Below the pieces are notes generated by a model, which saw only the letters and a program-made list of their open reading frames with translations, searched no databases and was not told where the DNA came from. 8,078 nucleotides of DNA from a virus (taxonomy: Duplodnaviria > Heunggongvirae > Uroviricota > Caudoviricetes): IMG/VR virus record IMGVR_UViG_2606217173_000005; one strand, written 5' to 3'. The position numbers and the translations under genes were made by a program. Positions within the stretch are counted from its first letter, which is position 1, and each line of letters begins with the position of its first letter. This document shows positions 2,719-8,078 of this stretch, piece after piece.

Positions 2719-3399
2719 ATGGGAACTGCGACATTAATACTCGGTGAGTCTGGCACCGGAAAATCAACCAGCATGAGAAATATCAATCCAGAGGAAGCAA
2801 TACTTATAAAACCAATAGGCAAGCCGCTACCATTTAAATCAAAAGAATGGCTGGCATGGGATGCCAGAGCAAAAAAAGGAACCGTAGTTACCACTGACAA
2901 ATGGGACGTAATAGTTGCCGTAATTAAGCGTGCTCACGAATACGGGAAAAGAATCGTTATTGTTGATGACTTCCAGTATGTGATGAGCAATGAGTTTATG
3001 CGCCGTTCAGAAGAAAAGTCGTTTGATAAATTTACTGAGATAGGCCGCCACGCATGGGAGGTGATTAAGGCTGCACAGGATGCGCCTGATGACCTGAGAG
3101 TCTATTTTCTTGCGCACACCGAAGAAACACCTATGGGGCGCGTGAAAATGAAAACTATCGGCAAAATGCTGGACGAGAAAATCACTGTTGAAGGCATGTT
3201 TACTATAGTTCTTCGCACCCTTACCCGTGATGACCAGTTCTTTTTCACCACGAAAAACAACGGTGCAGACACTGTTAAATCCCCAATGGGAATGTTTGAT
3301 ACCAATGAGATTGATAACGATCTCTCTTTCGTCGATGCCACTGTTTGTGATTACTACGGCATCAATAATGTTCATCAAATTAAGGAAAACGCCGCATGA
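2719..3399 (+). CDS. Sak4-like RecA-core ATPase (phage single-strand annealing protein, AAA_24-type)
   Basis: 226 aa; N-terminal Walker A LILGESGTGKST; Walker B-like RIVIVDDFQ; size and motif order typical of phage Sak4; RBS GAGG upstream. Confidence 0.8.
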   Translation: MGTATLILGESGTGKSTSMRNINPEEAILIKPIGKPLPFKSKEWLAWDARAKKGTVVTTDKWDVIVAVIKRAHEYGKRIVIVDDFQYVMSNEFMRRSEEKSFDKFTEIGRHAWEVIKAAQDAPDDLRVYFLAHTEETPMGRVKMKTIGKMLDEKITVEGMFTIVLRTLTRDDQFFFTTKNNGADTVKSPMGMFDTNEIDNDLSFVDATVCDYYGINNVHQIKENAA

Positions 3400-3983
3400 G
3401 CAACGTGATTTTTACTTATAACGAAGAAGCAGCACTGACCGCAGGGCAAGGTGGTTTTATTAACGAAACTGGCGCTCATATAATTACCATTACTGAAGCA
3501 GAACTAAAGCAATCAGAAAAAGGCGCAAAATTTATTGAGTTTTCTGGCGAATCCGACGACGGACGTAAAATACAATATCTTAGCGTTTGTGTTCAGAAAA
3601 ATGACGGAACGGAAAATAAATTTGGCGCAAATGTCGTCCACGCCATGATGGGGTGTGTTGGGATTAAGCGGTTAACGCAACATATGGTTTCCGCCAGTAA
3701 ATTTGTTGCACCTGAATTTCATGGAAAGAAAATCGGGTTAGTGCTCCAGAAAGTATTAACCACAAACAAAAAGACTGGCGCAGACAGCTACCAGATGGAA
3801 ATACGCATCCCGTTTATTGCACAAACAGGTCAAACCCTTAAAGAAAAGTCGGAAGGCAAGCAACCAGAAACTATCGCCAACATGGCTGCCAACCTCAAAG
3901 ATAAAGACAATCGCTCTAAAAACGTAAGCCAGAATCATGCAGATGATTATGGTTACAGCCAGAACGATTACCCTCCTTTCTGA
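3396..3983 (+). CDS. Putative phage SSB-like partner of Sak4 with acidic/aromatic C-terminal tail
   Basis: 195 aa; ATGA start/stop overlap with the Sak4-like gene; C-terminus ...HADDYGYSQNDYPPF resembles the SSB C-terminal tip (DDDIPF-like); RBS AAGGA at 3382-3386. OB-fold not verified. Confidence 0.7.
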   Translation: MSNVIFTYNEEAALTAGQGGFINETGAHIITITEAELKQSEKGAKFIEFSGESDDGRKIQYLSVCVQKNDGTENKFGANVVHAMMGCVGIKRLTQHMVSASKFVAPEFHGKKIGLVLQKVLTTNKKTGADSYQMEIRIPFIAQTGQTLKEKSEGKQPETIANMAANLKDKDNRSKNVSQNHADDYGYSQNDYPPF

Positions 3984-4006: not shown

Positions 4007-4303
4007 ATGCCAGCGCCTCTGTATGGTGCGGACGACGCGCGCCGCTGTTCCGGCAATTCCGTATTGGAGGTGCTGGATAAATTCAGAAAAAACTACGACC
4101 TGATAATGTCGCTACCGCAGGAAACGAAAGAGGAAAAGGAATTTCGCCATTGTATCTGGCTTGCAGAGAAAAAAGAACGCGAGCGAATTTACCAGACATC
4201 AATCCGACCATTCCGCAAAGCCACATATACCCACTTCCCTGAATATATCGACCCGCGCCTGCGTAATTACCGCTCACGCTATGGCGCTATCAGTAATGAC
4301 TGA
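4007..4303 (+). CDS. Hypothetical protein (98 aa)
   Basis: RBS AAGGA at 3995-3999, ATG at 4007; codirectional in the operon; no recognisable motif. Confidence 0.7.
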
Positions 4304-4478: not shown

Positions 4479-4897
4479 AACAAATGTCACTAATTGAAAT
4501 GGATGGTTTTCTGAAAGGTAAATGCATCCCACGAGATTTAAAGGTTAACGAAACAAACGCTGAATATCTGGTGCGTAAATTTGCTGAAGCGAAGGCCAAG
4601 TGCGCGGCGCTGGCAGCGGAGAATGCGGCGCTTAAACAGTCGGAGAAGGAATTTAATAACTTCTGTCGTCAGGAGTACTACGGTTGGGAGGACAACTTCA
4701 CGGAAACCCCAGCCACCGATGCTTTCCTGGCTGAAGTACGGGCGCAGGGTGTGGAGATGCTGGCAAAAAATCATCAGAGTATCGTCAATGCACTTAAGGG
4801 AGATTCTCTCTTTTCTGATGGTGAATACCGACATGCAGCTATTGTTTCCGCAGCTGTATATTTCGCTGCAGAGCTTCGCAAAGGAGGCAGCCAGTGA
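4475..4897 (+). CDS. Hypothetical protein (140 aa)
   Basis: GGAG at 4462-4465 then ATG at 4475; the stop overlaps the next gene's GTG start (GTGA). Confidence 0.7.
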
Positions 4898-5775
4898 GAG
4901 AAATTAACTATCAGGAACTGCGTGAGCGTTATTCACAGCAACCAGTACCAAAATGCCGCATTTGTGGTGATGAAATGACAGTGCAGCGTATATGTGGCAG
5001 ACACATCACGTATGGATGTACAGGCGCAACCTACGACGACAAAGGTTGCTACTACGCAGAAGGCCGCAGTATCGCAGATGACCATTATGGGCTGTCCCGC
5101 GTCACTGTTATCGATGTTAGCGACCCGGAAGTTCTAGCATTACTGGATGAACGGGAAAGAAACCAGCAATACATCAAATCCCGCGACAAGGAGAACGAGG
5201 ATATTGCGCTAACGGTAGGGAAGCTGCGCGTTGAGCTGGAAGGCAAAGACAGCAAAATAGCCAATCTTACCGCCGAACGCGATGCTCTTCGTGAAGGTGA
5301 GATGGGCGACGCTAGGCATAGCAACACACGGGCCGCAGCTGATATCTACTTCCAACTGGTCGAGGAGTGCGAAATTCCTGCTGGCGGTTCTCTGGTCGAG
5401 TACGTTGACGATATGCGCGAGAAGCTGGAAGCCGCAGAGAAGCACATAGCAGAACTGGAAACAAAAGCGAACCAGCAAACCAGAATAAGCGATAAGGGGC
5501 TGACAAAGCTGATTGCCGATGCTGACAAAATGCTGGGTATGCGTTCGCCGGTTATAGACAGCGAGTGGTGGACGCTTTTACGGCAGTTCCTGATTGAACT
5601 TCAGGATCGCCGCAGAAACAGCATTTCTGAATCTGGAATCCGTGCTGAAACCCTGAATGATTTAATCCGACATATTGACAGAAACCTGGATATTGACGCG
5701 ATGAAATCGCCGTTTGAACTGTCATCTGAAATTGTGGATTACGTTAATAGGCAACTGCACAAGGAGAATTCGTAA
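4894..5775 (+). CDS. Ea22-like prophage protein with N-terminal Cys-rich putative zinc ribbon and central coiled coil
   Basis: 293 aa; GTG start 6 nt after AAGGAGG (4881-4887); Cys cluster CRICGDE...C...C...C in the first 55 residues; the segment LLDERERNQQYIKSRDKENEDIALTVGKLRVELE matches my recollection of the conserved Ea22 core (not database-verified). Confidence 0.75.
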   Translation: MREINYQELRERYSQQPVPKCRICGDEMTVQRICGRHITYGCTGATYDDKGCYYAEGRSIADDHYGLSRVTVIDVSDPEVLALLDERERNQQYIKSRDKENEDIALTVGKLRVELEGKDSKIANLTAERDALREGEMGDARHSNTRAAADIYFQLVEECEIPAGGSLVEYVDDMREKLEAAEKHIAELETKANQQTRISDKGLTKLIADADKMLGMRSPVIDSEWWTLLRQFLIELQDRRRNSISESGIRAETLNDLIRHIDRNLDIDAMKSPFELSSEIVDYVNRQLHKENS

Positions 5776-5957: not shown

Positions 5958-6142
5958 AAAACCGTAAAGCAAAAATTCTTTTGACCTGTAGAAACGCGCG
6001 CGGCGTCCAGCAATGGTTAAAACTCAGTAACCGCAGAATGGGATTGTTCACAAACACGGCTGATATCGTGATGTGTTTTCTTAACAAACCCAGCGCGGCG
6101 CAAAACCGCTGGAAAAACCACTTGCGCACTAAAGGAGAGTGA
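5954..6142 (+). CDS. Hypothetical small basic protein (62 aa)
   Basis: GGAG at 5941-5944 then ATG at 5954; stop at 6140-6142, immediately before the next start. Confidence 0.5.
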   Translation: MKNRKAKILLTCRNARGVQQWLKLSNRRMGLFTNTADIVMCFLNKPSAAQNRWKNHLRTKGE

Positions 6143-6143
6143 T

Positions 6144-6362
6144 GTGCCTACATTATTCAGAAAAGAATACCCGCGAAGAAGCAGGACAATAGAAATCATG
6201 TTTCTCATTCTGTTTATCGTGTTGATGATACCGATATCCCCGCTAATTTTTATCTGGGCAATCGGGAAAATAATTGAGCCAGTTATTGAATTGTATAACG
6301 ACGTGGTATGGGCGTCGTTCAACACACTGCACAATAAAATTAATCCGTATAAGGAGAACTGA
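6144..6362 (+). CDS. Small predicted membrane protein (72 aa, one long hydrophobic segment)
   Basis: GTG start after AAAGGAGAG (6131-6139); basic N-terminus RKEYPRRSR followed by the hydrophobic stretch IMFLILFIVLMIPISPLIFIWAIG. The start could instead be the internal ATG. Confidence 0.5.
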   Translation: MPTLFRKEYPRRSRTIEIMFLILFIVLMIPISPLIFIWAIGKIIEPVIELYNDVVWASFNTLHNKINPYKEN

Positions 6363-6363
6363 T

Positions 6364-6882
6364 ATGACCACTATTACCAGAGAAAACGCGGAAATTAAAT
6401 CATTCATCACTGGTTTCCTGAGCGACCCGGCGCACGATAACCAATCTTCAGACAGCCTGCTTGCCAATGTGTTTCGTATCGCACTGGCGTCACTGGAAGC
6501 AGAGCCGGTGGCGTGGAAGGTAACATTCACGCAAATTGACCGTGAATATAACACGTTCACTGGTATGTATTCTGACAAAGCAGAAGTCGAACGGTGGGTG
6601 CGGCTGCATAAAGCATGTAATTTTCGGGCAGATATAACACCGCTTTATACCGCCAAGCCAGTGCCGGTAACTCCGGATGGTTGGATAAGCTGTAGTGAGC
6701 GAATGCCAGAGGATGGTCAGCACGTAATTATTTTATGTGATGGCGCATTCGTTCTTCATGCGCAATATCGAGACGGTGAGTTTTTCGATATTGTCCGCAA
6801 TGGTGATGAATTTTTTGAAACACAGAGCCGCAATGTAACCGACTGGATGCCGCTACCAGAACCGCCGCAGGAGGTGAAGTAA
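6364..6882 (+). CDS. DUF551-type prophage protein
   Basis: 172 aa from the ATG at 6364 (RBS AAGGAGA at 6351-6357); C-terminal motif WISCSERMPEDGQHVIIL...DWMPLPEPP is, as I recall it, characteristic of DUF551 proteins of lambdoid prophages. Confidence 0.75.
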   Translation: MTTITRENAEIKSFITGFLSDPAHDNQSSDSLLANVFRIALASLEAEPVAWKVTFTQIDREYNTFTGMYSDKAEVERWVRLHKACNFRADITPLYTAKPVPVTPDGWISCSERMPEDGQHVIILCDGAFVLHAQYRDGEFFDIVRNGDEFFETQSRNVTDWMPLPEPPQEVK

Positions 6883-7160
6883 TGGACTCCTTCGCGAAAT
6901 ATACAATTATTGACTGGATAGCCTTCCTTCAGGTTTTGCTCATCTGGTTTTATATGGCTTACAGGAGTGGACAGTGGATTGTCAGTGTAGCCTGTAGCAA
7001 GGGATGGCGTTGGTGGAACAGAAAGAATAAAAAAGCACTGGCATTGGATTCGTTTTACGAAGCATTCAATCTTAACAGCCTTCAGCCTGGTTCTGTCATT
7101 GTAGTCACCACTCAAAGCGGCATGACCATTCAGATTCATAAACCAAAAGAGGAAAAATGA
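6882..7160 (+). CDS. Hypothetical protein with hydrophobic N-terminal segment (92 aa)
   Basis: Strong RBS AGGAGGTG at 6869-6876; TAATG overlap with the DUF551 gene; hydrophobic IIDWIAFLQVLLIWFYMAY followed by the basic, Trp-rich KGWRWWNRKNKK. Confidence 0.6.
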   Translation: MDSFAKYTIIDWIAFLQVLLIWFYMAYRSGQWIVSVACSKGWRWWNRKNKKALALDSFYEAFNLNSLQPGSVIVVTTQSGMTIQIHKPKEEK

Positions 7161-7246
7161 TGTGGCCTATATGTGTTAATTGCGGACGGATGTGCCTATC
7201 TGGATGGTGCCGAAAGTGCGACAAATGCACGAAGAAAAGACAATAA
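7157..7246 (+). CDS. Cys-rich micro-ORF (28-29 aa, putative zinc-ribbon peptide)
   Basis: MMWPICVNCGRMCLSGWCRKCDKCTKKRQ; six Cys spaced CxxC-x3-C-x4-CxxCxxC; AAGAGG at 7147-7152; ATGA-coupled to the upstream gene; immediately followed by tandem terminator hairpins. Not in the ORF track. Confidence 0.35.
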   Translation: MMWPICVNCGRMCLSGWCRKCDKCTKKRQ

Positions 7247-7250
7247 CAAT

Positions 7251-7277
7251 CCTCGCACTCGCGGGGATTTCTTTTAT
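7251..7277 (+). terminator. Candidate intrinsic terminator (first of a tandem pair)
   Basis: Hairpin cctcgc-actc-gcgggg (7251-7266, one G-U pair) followed by the T-rich run atttcttttat. Confidence 0.4.
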
Positions 7278-7282
7278 CTGAA

Positions 7283-7308
7283 CTCGCTACGGCGGGGTTT
7301 GTTTTTTT
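7283..7308 (+). terminator. Candidate intrinsic terminator (second of the tandem pair)
   Basis: Hairpin ctcgc-tacg-gcggg (7283-7296) followed by tttgttttttt; the stem sequence is a near-duplicate of the first hairpin. Confidence 0.45.
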
Positions 7309-7311
7309 GAG

Positions 7312-7617
7312 ATGATTATGGTCTGTTCAACATTCAACCCTCTAACGTTACAGAAATACCAGCCAGACCCTGAAGATTTATGCTCACTGTGTGGCGGAAA
7401 TCATGGCAAAGCCGCCATGATCGAATGTAAGGACAAAATCCACATATGCCTTAATTGCGTTGATGTCCTCGTTGATATCAAAAATGAGAGAGAAGATAAA
7501 AAGCGTAGCGAGGCTGTTCGCGCCTTAGATTCATGGATGCGAGATGGGTATAGTGCCGCGCAAATTTATGACTTAGCCATTTCAAAAGGCGAAATACCAG
7601 GTGTGCGAATCGAATAA
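7312..7617 (+). CDS. Hypothetical protein with CxxC...C...CxxC zinc-finger-like motif (101 aa)
   Basis: ORF with Cys pattern CSLCGG...C...CLNC; weak RBS; starts directly after the tandem terminators. Confidence 0.6.
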   Translation: MIMVCSTFNPLTLQKYQPDPEDLCSLCGGNHGKAAMIECKDKIHICLNCVDVLVDIKNEREDKKRSEAVRALDSWMRDGYSAAQIYDLAISKGEIPGVRIE

Positions 7618-7652
7618 GAAGCGCACTCAAGCATCTTTTGGAGAAATCACAA

Positions 7653-7820
7653 ATGCACTTCCGAGTCACAGGAGAATGGAATGGAGAGCCATTCAACAGA
7701 GTTATCGAAGCAGAGAACATCAACGACTGCTATGCCCACTGGATGCTGTGGGCGCAGATAGCACATGCAGACGTAACCAATATTTGTATTGAAGAACTGA
7801 AAGAACACCAAGCCGCCTGA
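7653..7820 (+). CDS. Hypothetical small protein (55 aa)
   Basis: GGAG at 7640-7643 then ATG at 7653; its stop codon lies in the loop of the downstream terminator hairpin. Confidence 0.5.
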   Translation: MHFRVTGEWNGEPFNRVIEAENINDCYAHWMLWAQIAHADVTNICIEELKEHQAA

Positions 7821-7832
7821 TGGCGGTTTTTT
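7812..7832 (+). terminator. Intrinsic (rho-independent) terminator
   Basis: GC stem ccgcc (7813-7817) / ggcgg (7822-7826), 4-nt loop, then six T (7827-7832). Confidence 0.65.
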
Positions 7833-7877
7833 ATTACCTGATTTGCAGGTTCGATTCCCTATTTGGAGATAGCACTC

Positions 7878-8078
7878 ATGCAACACGAACTACAGCCTGA
7901 TTCACTGGTTGATTTGAAATTCATCATGGCCGATACTGGCTTCGGTAAAACCTTCATCTATGACCGGATTAAGTCCGGCGACCTGCCAAAAGCCAAAGTT
8001 ATCCACGGGCGAGCAAGATGGTTATATCGTGACCATTGTGAATTCAAAAATAAGCTCTTAAGCCGCGCCAATGGGTAA
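7878..8078 (+). CDS. torI: Excisionase / recombination directionality factor of the Xis-AlpA-TorI winged-helix family
   Basis: 66-aa ORF MQHELQPDSLVDLKFIMADTGFGKTFIYDRIKSGDLPKAKVIHGRARWLYRDHCEF...; the pattern F-x-Y-x-x-I-x-x-G-x-hPK-x-x-K-x-G-x-x-x-RW is typical of AlpA/Xis-type excisionases; length and sequence match my recollection of TorI of prophage KplE1 (CPS-53), not database-verified; GGAG at 7865-7868 precedes the ATG at 7878. Confidence 0.75.
   Translation: MQHELQPDSLVDLKFIMADTGFGKTFIYDRIKSGDLPKAKVIHGRARWLYRDHCEFKNKLLSRANG

What the first reader, a model, noticed from the sequence alone, without database searches (positions are those of the whole stretch)
7157..7308. Cys-rich 29-codon micro-ORF ending the operon, followed by a duplicated pair of terminator hairpins
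The peptide (six Cys in 29 residues) is translationally coupled to the upstream gene. Immediately downstream are two hairpins with near-identical stems (CTCGC...GCGGGG), each followed by a T-run. Tandem terminators here suggest regulated read-through (antitermination) into the xis-proximal genes. The micro-ORF is below usual annotation thresholds.
Basis: seen in the sequence. Interest (0 to 1): 0.5.

Follow-up and report, generated by a model that had tools for sequence, protein, structure and literature searches.

The report
Unannotated phage mini-protein, twin terminators
A 28-29-codon cysteine-rich gene that annotation pipelines skip is a real, conserved small phage protein (probably zinc-binding), and the two hairpins after it are the same predicted terminator pair that phage lambda carries ahead of its excision genes; both features are real but largely ordinary.

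Summary
The ORF at 7157-7246 (six Cys) overlaps the stop of the upstream DUF4752 gene. Two hairpins, each followed by a T-run, sit at 7248-7279 and 7283-7308.

The micro-ORF is a genuine gene. Homologues (MWPIC..CGR.C...WC..CD) occur in lambdoid/P22-like prophages, in virulent siphoviruses (C1, KFS-SE2, CF-SP1), in a Citrobacter myovirus and in TraR-NinX prophage arrays. pN/pS is 0.14 in this frame and 2.2 and 1.4 in the other two. Five of the six Cys are invariant. Every copy has a Shine-Dalgarno motif and a stop/start overlap with a different upstream gene. No Pfam, PHROG or NCBIfam family matches. RefSeq leaves it unannotated in 183 complete E. coli genomes. Phage HK106 gp30 is the only correct-frame annotation I found on a phage genome record.

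The hairpins are not special to this prophage. The ~74-nt block is about 94% identical to lambda between ea8.5 and orf55, where it was predicted as terminators t3/t4 (Bloch 2014). It occurs in 2483 of 5426 E. coli genomes and sits at a mosaic junction. Stem covariation is absent.

Read-through by N-type antitermination is standard lambdoid biology and was not tested here. The micro-ORF does not have to end an operon. Interest is modest: a new small-protein family of unknown function, plus known terminators.

The parts
6882..7160 (+). DUF4752 gene (92 aa). Its TGA stop (7158-7160) overlaps the micro-ORF start.
   Evidence: Pfam PF15944, E 2.4e-36. Annotated as DUF4752 in RefSeq relatives. It precedes the micro-ORF in all 64 lambdoid IMG/VR loci examined (61 at >=80% identity; the other 3 share its C-terminal IQIHKPKEEK).
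7149..7152 (+). GAGG Shine-Dalgarno motif for the micro-ORF, lying inside the last codons of the upstream gene
   Evidence: Read from the sequence. A GGAGG, GAGG, AGGA or GGGG motif lies within the 18 nt upstream of the ATG in all 14 representative homologues, although the upstream genes are unrelated.
7157..7246 (+). Micro-ORF of 29 codons at most. The homologous start is the second ATG at 7160 (28 aa). It encodes the Cys-rich mini-protein MWPICVNCGRMCLSGWCRKCDKCTKKRQ.
   Evidence: ORF list. Homologues in 80 viral loci, 24 distinct core sequences. pN/pS is 0.14, against 2.17 and 1.42 in the other frames. Invariant residues: M W P I C..C G R.C...W C..C D. Deposited once as HK106 gp30.
7243..7316 (+). 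Conserved ~74-nt intergenic block shared by lambdoid phages. It runs from about the upstream stop codon (ATAACAATCC...) to the Shine-Dalgarno motif of the next gene and forms a mosaic junction.
   Evidence: 94-95% identical to lambda, HK630, 933W and P22-likes. Present in 2483 of 5426 E. coli genomes at 3598 places. The flanking genes differ between copies.
7248..7279 (+). Hairpin 1 (7248-7269, 9 bp, loop ACUC) plus its U-rich tail (7270-7279). Equivalent to lambda predicted terminator t3.
   Evidence: -13.1 kcal/mol, z -4.1. Lambda counterpart. Bloch et al. 2014, Table 4.
7283..7308 (+). Hairpin 2 (7283-7296, 5 bp core, UACG loop) plus its T-run (7298-7308). Equivalent to lambda predicted terminator t4. 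Compared with relatives, the stem is weaker and the T-run longer in this window.
   Evidence: -8.2 kcal/mol here, -11.0 in lambda. Variants GCGGG/GCGAG keep the pairing (U.G <-> U-A). Bloch Table 4.
7312..7617 (+). Next gene on the same strand (101 aa; annotated relatives start at the second ATG, 7318). Homologue of 933W L0063, with CxxC...CxxC motifs.
   Evidence: phrog_3680, E 2.8e-69. RefSeq hypothetical protein. 933W layout.
7653..7820 (+). Homologue of lambda orf55 (55 aa)
   Evidence: phrog_676, E 4e-38. Lambda sequence. Discussed as Orf55 in PMC8614690.
7810..7836 (+). Third terminator-like hairpin plus T-run, overlapping the orf55-homologue stop codon. Equivalent to lambda predicted t5.
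   Evidence: -13.0 kcal/mol, z -3.5. Bloch Table 4.
7878..8078 (+). torI (excisionase / recombination directionality factor), the gene gated by the three hairpins
   Evidence: RefSeq annotation of relatives, WP_001163428.1. No sigma-70-like promoter was found in 6000-8078.

Best explanation
Two independent, real features happen to abut.

(1) The micro-ORF. 7160-7246 (at most 7157-7246) is a genuine protein-coding gene for a 24-29-residue mini-protein. Its conserved core is MWPIC-x2-CGR-x-C-x3-WC-x2-CD. I infer that it folds as a single zinc knuckle/ribbon (CX2C-X8-CX2C plus a fifth conserved Cys). It would be made by termination-reinitiation coupling to whatever gene lies upstream. It is a small mobile accessory early gene exchanged among enterobacterial phages, both temperate and virulent. 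I infer that the product, not the act of translation, is what matters, most likely by binding a host or phage macromolecule early in infection. The target is unknown.

(2) The hairpins. 7248-7279 and 7283-7308 are the local copy of a ~74-nt block that most lambdoid phages carry near the xis-proximal end of the exo-xis region. In lambda these are the predicted terminators t3/t4. I infer that they act as tandem intrinsic terminators. Together with a third one at 7810-7836, they would stop non-antiterminated leftward transcription before the excisionase gene torI. N-type antiterminated polymerase from pL would read through after induction. The block also serves as a homologous-recombination junction where gene modules are swapped.

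What is shown: coding constraint, conservation, anatomy and distribution. What is inferred: zinc binding, the target, actual termination and read-through.
For: Micro-ORF
- tblastn and pattern scans find it in P22-like and lambdoid phages, in virulent Deseoctovirus, Skatevirus and Swiduovirus siphoviruses, in the 154-kb Citrobacter phage Tr1 and in a Kluyvera genome.
- There are 24 distinct nucleotide versions of the 22-codon core. Variable columns at codon positions 1, 2 and 3 number 9, 8 and 19.
- pS is 0.87-0.89 and pN 0.12, so pN/pS is 0.14. For codons outside the search patterns the ratio is 0.24. Frames +1 and +2 give 2.17 and 1.42, and frame +2 has 35 stops.
- Five Cys, plus W, P, G, R, W and D, are invariant.
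- All 14 representative copies have a Shine-Dalgarno-like motif. All but one (L085) have a stop/start overlap or a 1-nt gap with an upstream gene, and those genes are unrelated: DUF4752, phrog_7798, TraR-type zinc finger and others.
- In virulent phages it exactly fills the roughly 90-nt unannotated gap between two annotated genes.
- Where the upstream operon is missing (Vi II-E1), only a decayed remnant remains.
- A single-sequence AF2 model has mean pLDDT 80.7 with short beta bridges.
- The only sequence and fold neighbours, although not significant, are zinc modules. One is the Pol III RPC2 ribbon VCDKCGLMGYSGWCTTC, which has the same CX2CX8CX2C spacing.

Hairpins
- Their anatomy and energies fit intrinsic terminators.
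- The lambda counterparts were predicted as terminators by ERPIN and RNAmotif.
- The block is found in 336 phage records and in 2483 of 5426 E. coli genomes.
- It always lies between the last ea-type gene and the 0-2 small genes before xis, in lambda, 933W, ST104 and this window.
- Stem changes are mostly pairing-neutral (A-U to G.U, U.G to U-A) or lie in loops and helix ends; 96.8% of cells are paired, against at most 54% when the partners are slid.
- In L012 and L050 an inserted gene brings a different hairpin in front of the same T-run.
- No promoter-like site lies between the hairpins and torI.
- The exo-xis region is transcribed from pL, and xis/int expression needs N antitermination.
- In KplE1-type modules, production of TorI alone triggers excision.
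Against: Micro-ORF
- There is no direct evidence of translation or of metal binding.
- No significant match exists to any known family or fold.
- The homologue searches were made at the protein level, which inflates apparent conservation in the two motif segments used as patterns.
- Within the shallow lambdoid clade, variation looks neutral: 8 nonsynonymous changes against 1 synonymous. These include losses of invariant Cys in JEP4, L071 and L072. Constraint is therefore visible only in deep comparisons.

Hairpins
- There are no compensatory changes, and covariation is no better than in shuffles. The structure is conserved only because the sequence is.
- Hairpin 2 is weak in this window (z -1.4).
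- I found no experimental mapping of 3' ends at these sites in lambda or its relatives.
- The window has no N gene or nut site, because an IS5 sits at 1-~1050.
- Sequence conservation could reflect recombination-junction hitch-hiking rather than terminator function.
Confidence: 0.75

Rival explanations
1. The micro-ORF matters through its translation rather than its peptide. A ribosome stopping at TAA 7244-7246, 1 nt before hairpin 1, would mask the 5' arm and lower termination at hairpin 1. Hairpin 2 would act as a backstop. This would be a translation-coupled attenuator of read-through into the torI side.
For: The stop codon lies 1 nt from the base of the stem. In many lambdoid copies the conserved block begins at the upstream gene's TAA. 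The virulent-phage homologues also end 4-6 nt before a strong terminator. The orf55 homologue likewise has its stop inside a terminator loop. It is established, from my own knowledge and not checked here, that the distance between a stop codon and a terminator can affect termination efficiency.
Against: The amino-acid sequence is under strong purifying selection (pN/pS 0.14), which a pure 'ribosome delivery' ORF would not need. In the TraR-NinX group the micro-ORF is followed by another overlapping gene and no hairpin. In lambda, 933W and ST104 the same hairpins follow other genes or a 20-nt spacer. No alternative antiterminator fold is predicted. This effect could still exist as a side effect of the coding gene.
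Confidence: 0.1
2. The hairpin block is conserved mainly as a recombination linker (mosaic junction), or as an mRNA-stability or processing element, and terminates transcription little or not at all.
For: Identity stays at 90-96% while both flanks vary: DUF4752+micro-ORF, ASCH, EaA or ea8.5 upstream; orf55, L0063-type, HK022 p30-type or others downstream. Insertions occur exactly at the T-run between the hairpins. There is no covariation. The U-tract of hairpin 1 is interrupted (UCUUUUAUCU).
Against: Each hairpin has the canonical architecture of a GC-rich stem plus a T-run, on the coding strand only. Two terminator predictors call them in lambda. The replacement hairpin in L012/L050 keeps the stem-plus-T-run architecture with a different sequence. 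The two roles do not exclude each other.
Confidence: 0.12
3. The micro-ORF is a chance ORF, and its conservation reflects a DNA or RNA element or a gene in another frame or on the other strand.
For: The window contains 119 ORFs of at least 25 aa. Two overlapping ORFs in other frames (7173-7310 and 7180-7281) have actually been annotated in GenBank relatives. Some copies carry Cys-destroying changes.
Against: Third-position variation is saturated while the residues are conserved. The other frames give pN/pS above 1, and one has 35 stops. Homologues occur in phages with no flanking DNA similarity. No Rfam match was found.
Confidence: 0.02
4. The peptide is a disulfide-rich exported or modified peptide (bacteriocin, RiPP or cyclotide-like) rather than an intracellular zinc-binding protein.
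For: It has five or six Cys in under 30 residues. There is a weak, non-significant resemblance to kalata B7 (E 6.2).
Against: There is no signal peptide or leader-core architecture. No maturation or export genes lie next to it in any of the four genomic contexts. The CxxCG and WCxxC knuckle motifs are typical of zinc sites. It sits among early accessory genes.
Confidence: 0.03

Closest known systems
Phage lambda predicted terminators t3 and t4 (and t5) of the exo-xis region (Bloch et al. 2014, PLoS One, PMC4195576, Table 4)
   Same: These are homologous sequences. Window 7243-7316 is about 94-95% identical to lambda between ea8.5 and orf55. The two hairpins, the loops and the T-runs match. Window 7810-7829 corresponds to t5.
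   Different: In lambda the block follows ea8.5 after a ~20-nt spacer and directly precedes orf55. Here it follows the micro-ORF stop by 1 nt, and an extra 101-aa gene separates it from the orf55 homologue. Hairpin 2 here carries a T-to-G change (weaker stem) and a longer T-run. The lambda sites are themselves only computational predictions.
Classical pL-operon terminators tL1, tL2 and tL3 of lambda, overridden by N antitermination
   Same: Both are intrinsic terminators embedded in the early-left operon upstream of xis/int. The expected logic is the same: only N-modified polymerase reaches xis.
   Different: These are different sites. tL3 lies just after exo, which I know from memory of the pKD46 design. 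That location matches Bloch's t1 at L003 575-601, about 60 nt past exo. Termination and N read-through have not been measured at the sites studied here.
Escherichia phage HK106 gp30 (YP_007151700.1 / UniProt K7P872), a 29-aa 'hypothetical protein'
   Same: It belongs to the same family and differs from the window peptide by one residue (K27Q).
   Different: It is only a database entry, with no function, family or publication found.
Small zinc-finger proteins of the lambdoid exo-xis region (Orf73/TraR-type C4 finger; Ea8.5 homeodomain/zinc-finger)
   Same: All are short, Cys-rich accessory proteins encoded in the same early region. In one phage group the micro-ORF is translationally coupled directly to a TraR-type gene. 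The background comes from PMC8614690.
   Different: There is no detectable sequence relationship. The micro-protein is about a third of their size, consists of a single knuckle pair, and has CX2C-X8-CX2C spacing rather than the C4 spacing of the TraR/DksA type.
C-terminal zinc ribbon of eukaryotic RNA polymerase III subunit RPC2
   Same: It has identical CX2C-X8-CX2C spacing and shares G, M and SGWC residues (VCDKCGLMGYSGWCTTC against ICkhCGRmClsgWCrKC). It is also the top Foldseek hit.
   Different: The match is not significant (E 0.45 by sequence, E 3 by fold). It is a resemblance showing that this spacing can bind zinc, not evidence of homology.

Membership tests
Intrinsic (Rho-independent) terminator | GC-rich stem-loop on the transcribed strand | tested here: met
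   Hairpin 1 has 9 bp (5 GC) and folds at -13.1 kcal/mol (z -4.1). Hairpin 2 has a 5 bp core and folds at -8.2 kcal/mol (z -1.4) here, -11.0 in lambda.
Intrinsic (Rho-independent) terminator | U-rich tract directly 3' of the stem | tested here: met
   TCTTTTATCT follows hairpin 1 and GTTTGTTTTTTT follows hairpin 2. The reverse strand lacks T-runs.
Intrinsic (Rho-independent) terminator | Evolutionary support for the helix (compensatory changes) | tested here: inconclusive
   None of the 17 pairs changes on both sides, and the covariation score equals that of shuffles. 96.8% of cells are paired. Changes are one-sided wobbles or lie at helix ends.
Intrinsic (Rho-independent) terminator | Measured 3'-end formation or termination efficiency | not testable with these tools
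   No term-seq or in vitro data were found. The lambda counterparts are predictions only.
N-antiterminated lambdoid pL (early-left) operon | Gene order and strand typical of pL operons (cIII, kil, recombination genes, ea genes, xis) | tested here: met
   The relative L001 has repressor, cIII, kil, AAA ATPase, anti-RecBCD, Ea22-like, DUF551, DUF4752 and then torI on one strand. The window has the same genes from 2719 onward.
N-antiterminated lambdoid pL (early-left) operon | N-type antiterminator gene and nutL site upstream | not tested
   Neither is in the window, because an IS5 at 1-~1050 truncates the operon. The 98-aa ORF after the repressor in L001 matches only phrog_18389, of unknown function.
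Zinc ribbon / zinc knuckle small protein | Two CxxC knuckles with conserved spacing | tested here: met
   The pattern C6-x2-C9-x8-C18-x2-C21 is invariant in all 13 aligned lineages. C13 is also invariant. C24 occurs only in the window lineage.
Zinc ribbon / zinc knuckle small protein | Significant sequence or fold match to a known zinc-binding family | tested here: not met
   There are no hits in Pfam or NCBIfam. The best PHROG hit has E 0.025. The PDB profile search gives E 0.45 and Foldseek E >= 3. phmmer against 1.84e9 proteins returned only an uninformative repeat protein.
Zinc ribbon / zinc knuckle small protein | Metal binding | not testable with these tools
Leader peptide / transcription attenuator | Peptide sequence free to vary apart from regulatory codons, with alternative terminator and antiterminator folds | tested here: not met
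   The peptide is under purifying selection (pN/pS 0.14). Only the two terminator hairpins are predicted, with no competing fold. Some homologues lack any downstream hairpin.
Pfam DUF1244 (label on TPA metagenome entries for this peptide) | Match to PF06844 | tested here: not met
   hmmscan of the peptide against Pfam at E <= 0.1 returned no family. The label comes from the depositor.
HK022 put-type cis-acting antiterminator RNA (two stem-loops) | Promoter-proximal pair of stem-loops without U-tracts that makes polymerase termination-resistant | tested here: not met
   Each hairpin here is followed by a T-run. The block lies far from pL, at the xis end. It is present in lambda, which uses N. 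No Rfam family matched. This comparison rests on my own knowledge of put.

The most novel reading that the evidence does not exclude
The 24-29-residue Cys5 peptide is a free-standing zinc-binding mini-protein, among the smallest conserved phage proteins. It is traded between temperate lambdoid phages and unrelated virulent phages, and it acts as an early effector on a specific host target. One candidate target is RNA polymerase, which its genomic neighbours Orf73/TraR and Orf55 are thought to bind. Another is a defence or nucleic-acid target. It would be expressed only through translational coupling to the gene in front.
Probability: 0.3. Interest if true: 0.6.

Novelty: new member of a known kind. 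Interest (0 to 1): 0.38.

Why it matters
Systematic annotation gap. A gene under clear purifying selection is missed by RefSeq in all 183 complete E. coli genomes that carry it. In some phage records a spurious wrong-frame ORF takes its place. Fixing this adds a family to the poorly charted set of proteins under 30 aa.

A tractable candidate. The gene is shared by temperate and virulent enterobacterial phages and is always wired to the upstream gene by a stop/start overlap. That makes it a workable candidate for a minimal host-interaction module.

The terminators. For biologists working on the exo-xis region, the conserved terminator pair, plus a third terminator, sits in front of the excisionase. 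In TorI/IntS-type modules, making the excisionase is enough to trigger excision (PMC2951348). These sites are therefore plausible safety locks that tie excision to antiterminated, induced transcription. They are also a mapped hot spot for module shuffling.

None of this overturns current views.

Tried and rejected
- Pfam, PHROG and NCBIfam scans of three peptide versions gave nothing significant.
- A PDB profile search and a Foldseek search of the AF2 model gave only non-significant zinc-module neighbours.
- phmmer of a 30-aa window translation against 1.84 billion representatives gave one hit, a 157-aa fourfold repeat (SGFCQECDRCTTLQ). I judged it uninformative.
- A genome-contig scan found only one species representative, Kluyvera. 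The tool chose the pattern MWPIC[KV]HC, which excludes the window's VN type.
- The 90% cluster of the peptide is headed by a 480-aa TolC-like protein. I rejected this as a clustering artefact.
- I considered whether the hairpins are lambda tL3 and rejected the idea. tL3 lies just after exo (my memory of the pKD46 design), consistent with Bloch's t1 at L003 575-601. The 'tL3' papers found were about CRIM vectors or synthetic 'L3S..' terminators.
- Rfam found no family for the hairpins.
- The covariation test found no compensatory pairs.
- Literature searches for DUF4752 and for the peptide motif found nothing relevant.
- The lambda ribosome-profiling paper (PMC3718152) is not held.
- The idea of a functional link between the micro-ORF and the 101-aa downstream protein (shared C-terminal motif) was not pursued. 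Most lambdoid copies are followed by orf55 instead, and 933W has the 101-aa homologue without the micro-ORF.
Full report
CONTEXT. The window is the early-left (pL-type) arm of a lambdoid/P22-like E. coli prophage. An IS5 transposase gene lies at 1-981 on the minus strand. All the following genes are on the plus strand:
- an AAA ATPase (2719-3399);
- an SSB-like protein (3396-3983);
- P22 anti-RecBCD protein 2 (4007-4303);
- an Ea22-like protein (4894-5775);
- a DUF551 protein (6274-6882);
- a DUF4752 protein (6882-7160);
- the micro-ORF, then the two hairpins;
- a 101-aa CxxC protein (7312-7617);
- a homologue of lambda orf55 (7653-7820);
- the excisionase torI (7878-8078).

RefSeq relatives show the same order downstream of a repressor, cIII and kil, and one ends at the dsdC side of the argW integration site.

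OBSERVATION. The ORF 7157-7246 exists and encodes MMWPICVNCGRMCLSGWCRKCDKCTKKRQ, with six Cys. The DUF4752 stop is TGA 7158-7160. ATG 7157 therefore overlaps it as ATGA, and ATG 7160 overlaps it as TGATG. A GAGG motif lies at 7149-7152.

Hairpin 1 (7248-7269) has 9 bp and is followed by TCTTTTATCT. Hairpin 2 (7283-7296) has a 5-bp core with a UACG loop and is followed by GTTTGTTTTTTT. The pair folds at -24.1 kcal/mol (z -3.96). Separately the hairpins give -13.1 (z -4.1) and -8.2 kcal/mol (z -1.4); the lambda version of hairpin 2 gives -11.0 (z -4.5). Terminator-like sites are enriched in 6000-8078, with 7 found against 1.8 +/- 1.3 expected.

The 'near-identical stems' claim is partly true. 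The cores CTCGC and GCGGGG are shared, the loops differ, and by my own count on the sequence identity is 18/29 ungapped. However, the sixth G of hairpin 2 is specific to this window. A duplication cannot be demonstrated.

THE MICRO-ORF IS A REAL GENE. RefSeq does not annotate it. Several GenBank records instead annotate wrong-frame ORFs across it, namely mEp213 gp28 and Dewey CDS0021.

Homologues in other phages. tblastn of the peptide against phage genomes found near-identical copies in P22-like and lambdoid phages: IME10, mEp213, mEp043, HK106, Kapi1, Gally, Dewey and Stx1a phages. It also found 64-76% identical copies in unrelated phages. These are the virulent siphoviruses C1, KFS-SE2, KFSST1, ST1UNAM, ZCEC08 and CF-SP1, and the 154-kb Citrobacter phage Tr1.

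Position in the virulent siphoviruses. There the homologue exactly fills a ~90-nt unannotated gap. It follows a ~200-aa phrog_7798 protein, whose TGA stop is followed by one base and then the ATG, and it precedes a strong terminator that faces the convergent head-assembly gene.

Wider scan. A pattern scan of IMG/VR gave 80 loci with 24 distinct versions of the 22-codon core. A further group has the micro-ORF overlapping the stop of a TraR/DksA-type zinc-finger gene and followed at once by ninX. One GTDB species representative (Kluyvera) also carries it.

Conservation. Across 13 lineages the residues M, W, P, I, C6, C9, G, R, C13, W, C18, C21 and D are invariant. C24 is confined to the window's lineage.

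Selection. Synonymous sites are saturated (pS 0.87-0.89) while pN is 0.12, so pN/pS is 0.14. The ratio is 0.24 for the codons not used as search patterns. The two other frames give 2.17 and 1.42, and one of them has 35 stops.

Expression signals. All 14 representative homologues have a Shine-Dalgarno-like motif within the 18 nt upstream of the ATG, embedded in unrelated upstream genes. All start at the residue matching the window's second ATG, so 7160 is the likely start (28 aa).

Decay without the operon. In Vi II-E1, which lacks the small upstream operon, only a decayed remnant remains.

Caveats. The homologue searches worked at the protein level. Within the shallow lambdoid clade the few variants look neutral, with 8 nonsynonymous changes against 1 synonymous. 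These include lost Cys in JEP4 (three), L071 and L072.

WHAT THE PROTEIN IS. No Pfam, PHROG or NCBIfam family matches, and no paper mentions it. The exact sequence is deposited as HK106 gp30 'hypothetical protein'. Some TPA metagenome entries label it 'DUF1244', which Pfam does not support.

The motif CxxCG...WCxxC has the look of a single zinc knuckle pair. A PDB profile search gave only a non-significant hit (E 0.45), to the Pol III RPC2 zinc ribbon, which has identical CX2C-X8-CX2C spacing. A single-sequence AF2 model is fairly confident (pLDDT 80.7). Its non-significant Foldseek neighbours are all zinc modules. phmmer against 1.84 billion representatives found no informative relative or domain fusion.

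I therefore infer a zinc-binding mini-protein, made by termination-reinitiation from the upstream gene and acting through its product. The target is unknown.

THE HAIRPINS ARE A SHARED LAMBDOID BLOCK. Window 7242-7316 matches 336 phage records, but only 17 of them also cover the micro-ORF. It is about 94-95% identical to lambda itself, between ea8.5 and orf55. Bloch et al. 2014 predicted exactly these two hairpins in lambda as terminators t3 and t4, and the one after orf55 as t5, which corresponds to window 7810-7829.

The classical tL3 is a different site. It lies just after exo, which I know from memory. This is consistent with Bloch's t1 at L003 575-601.

In complete E. coli genomes the block occurs at 3598 places in 2483 of 5426 genomes, while the micro-ORF occurs in 183. 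The conserved stretch starts at about the upstream gene's stop (ATAACAATCC) and ends at the Shine-Dalgarno motif of the next gene. Both neighbours vary:
- upstream: micro-ORF, ASCH, EaA-type genes or ea8.5;
- downstream: orf55 type (34 of 64 loci), L0063/101-aa type (19 of 64), HK022 p30 type or others.

Some loci have genes inserted precisely between the two hairpins, and the insert brings its own, different hairpin in front of the same T-run. The block is therefore a mosaic junction as well as a terminator-like element.

Stem variation is one-sided (A-U to G.U, U.G to U-A) or lies at helix ends. No compensatory changes occur, and covariation is no better than in shuffles. No Rfam family matches.

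MECHANISM. The exo-xis region is transcribed from pL, and xis/int expression after induction depends on N antitermination. No promoter-like site lies between the hairpins and torI. In KplE1-type TorI/IntS modules, producing the RDF is enough to trigger excision.

The best-supported reading is that three intrinsic terminators (7248-7279, 7283-7308 and 7810-7836) block unmodified polymerase before torI and are read through by antiterminated polymerase. This is inference. Neither termination nor read-through has been measured at these sites, and this copy of the operon has lost its promoter-proximal part to IS5.

A possible side effect is that ribosomes stopping 1 nt before hairpin 1 weaken it, which would explain a backup hairpin. 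This cannot be the micro-ORF's main role, because the peptide sequence is conserved and some homologues lack a downstream hairpin.

VERDICT. Coupling, Cys conservation and terminator anatomy hold up. 'Ending the operon', 'duplicated' and a specific link between the micro-ORF and the terminators do not.

The terminators are already described as predictions in lambda. The micro-ORF is a real, almost never annotated small-protein family of unknown function. It is a new member of a known kind (small Cys-rich phage accessory proteins). Interest is modest.

Noticed in passing
window 7312-7617 (+): The 101-aa protein (phrog_3680, 933W L0063 homologue) has a weak ClpX-type C4 zinc-finger match (Pfam E 0.014, NCBIfam E 0.002; both below cut-offs). 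Its last ~40 residues resemble the C-terminus (…IYDAIAAGKIPGVKLE) of the phrog_7798 proteins that sit directly upstream of micro-ORF homologues in virulent siphoviruses (BLASTP E 7e-6). This may be a shared domain or a functional link.
   Followed up: partly
window 7653-7836 (+): The TGA stop (7818-7820) of the lambda orf55 homologue lies in the loop of a strong terminator hairpin (7810-7829, -13.0 kcal/mol). Its last codons therefore encode the 5' arm of the stem. This site corresponds to Bloch's lambda t5.
   Followed up: partly
window 1-~1050 (-): A complete IS5 transposase ORF (326 aa) abuts the prophage early-left operon and removes its promoter-proximal part. The window has no repressor, N, nutL, cIII or kil, all of which relatives such as L001 still have.
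   Followed up: no
L004 2574-2813 (mEp213 gp28); L091 1224-1325 (Dewey CDS0021): GenBank and RefSeq phage records annotate wrong-frame ORFs that run across the micro-ORF and hairpin 1 instead of the conserved frame.
   Followed up: yes
L010 ~1504-1590 (phage JEP4); L071, L072: The JEP4 copy of the micro-ORF has three of the invariant Cys codons changed by single bases (C9R, C13R, C18F). L071 has C21Y and L072 has C21R. Within the shallow lambdoid clade, changes are 8 nonsynonymous to 1 synonymous, which suggests relaxed selection in resident prophages.
   Followed up: partly
L012, L050, L066 (downstream of the micro-ORF): One or more genes are inserted exactly between hairpin 1 and hairpin 2. 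In L012 and L050 a different hairpin (CCGC-TTAAT-GCGG) was seen further downstream, in front of the same T-run and hairpin 2. This shows recombination at the T-run.
   Followed up: partly
L217 1185-1281 (Salmonella phage Vi II-E1): The position syntenic with the virulent-phage micro-ORF holds a decayed remnant (MW... then ...HCFRMRLTSWCKKCDKSPK*). In this phage the small upstream operon is absent.
   Followed up: yes
window 7801-7928 (-): There is a weak full-length match to the Rfam sRNA family STnc130 (26 bits against a gathering score of 55, E 0.37), antisense to the torI 5' region. It is not significant.
   Followed up: no
protein cluster of P0001/P0002: In the 90%-identity protein collection, the 29-aa peptide is grouped under an unrelated 480-aa TolC-like representative. 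This is a clustering artefact that would hide the peptide from representative-based searches.
   Followed up: yes
L078-L090, L213 (for example L084 1280-1975): A group of 44-50-kb prophage contigs, plus Kluyvera sichuanensis, carries the micro-ORF in a tight overlapping array. The order is a TraR/DksA-type zinc-finger gene (stop TGA overlapping ATG), then the micro-ORF, then ninX, with an AP2/HNH-like gene and a DNA methyltransferase nearby.
   Followed up: partly
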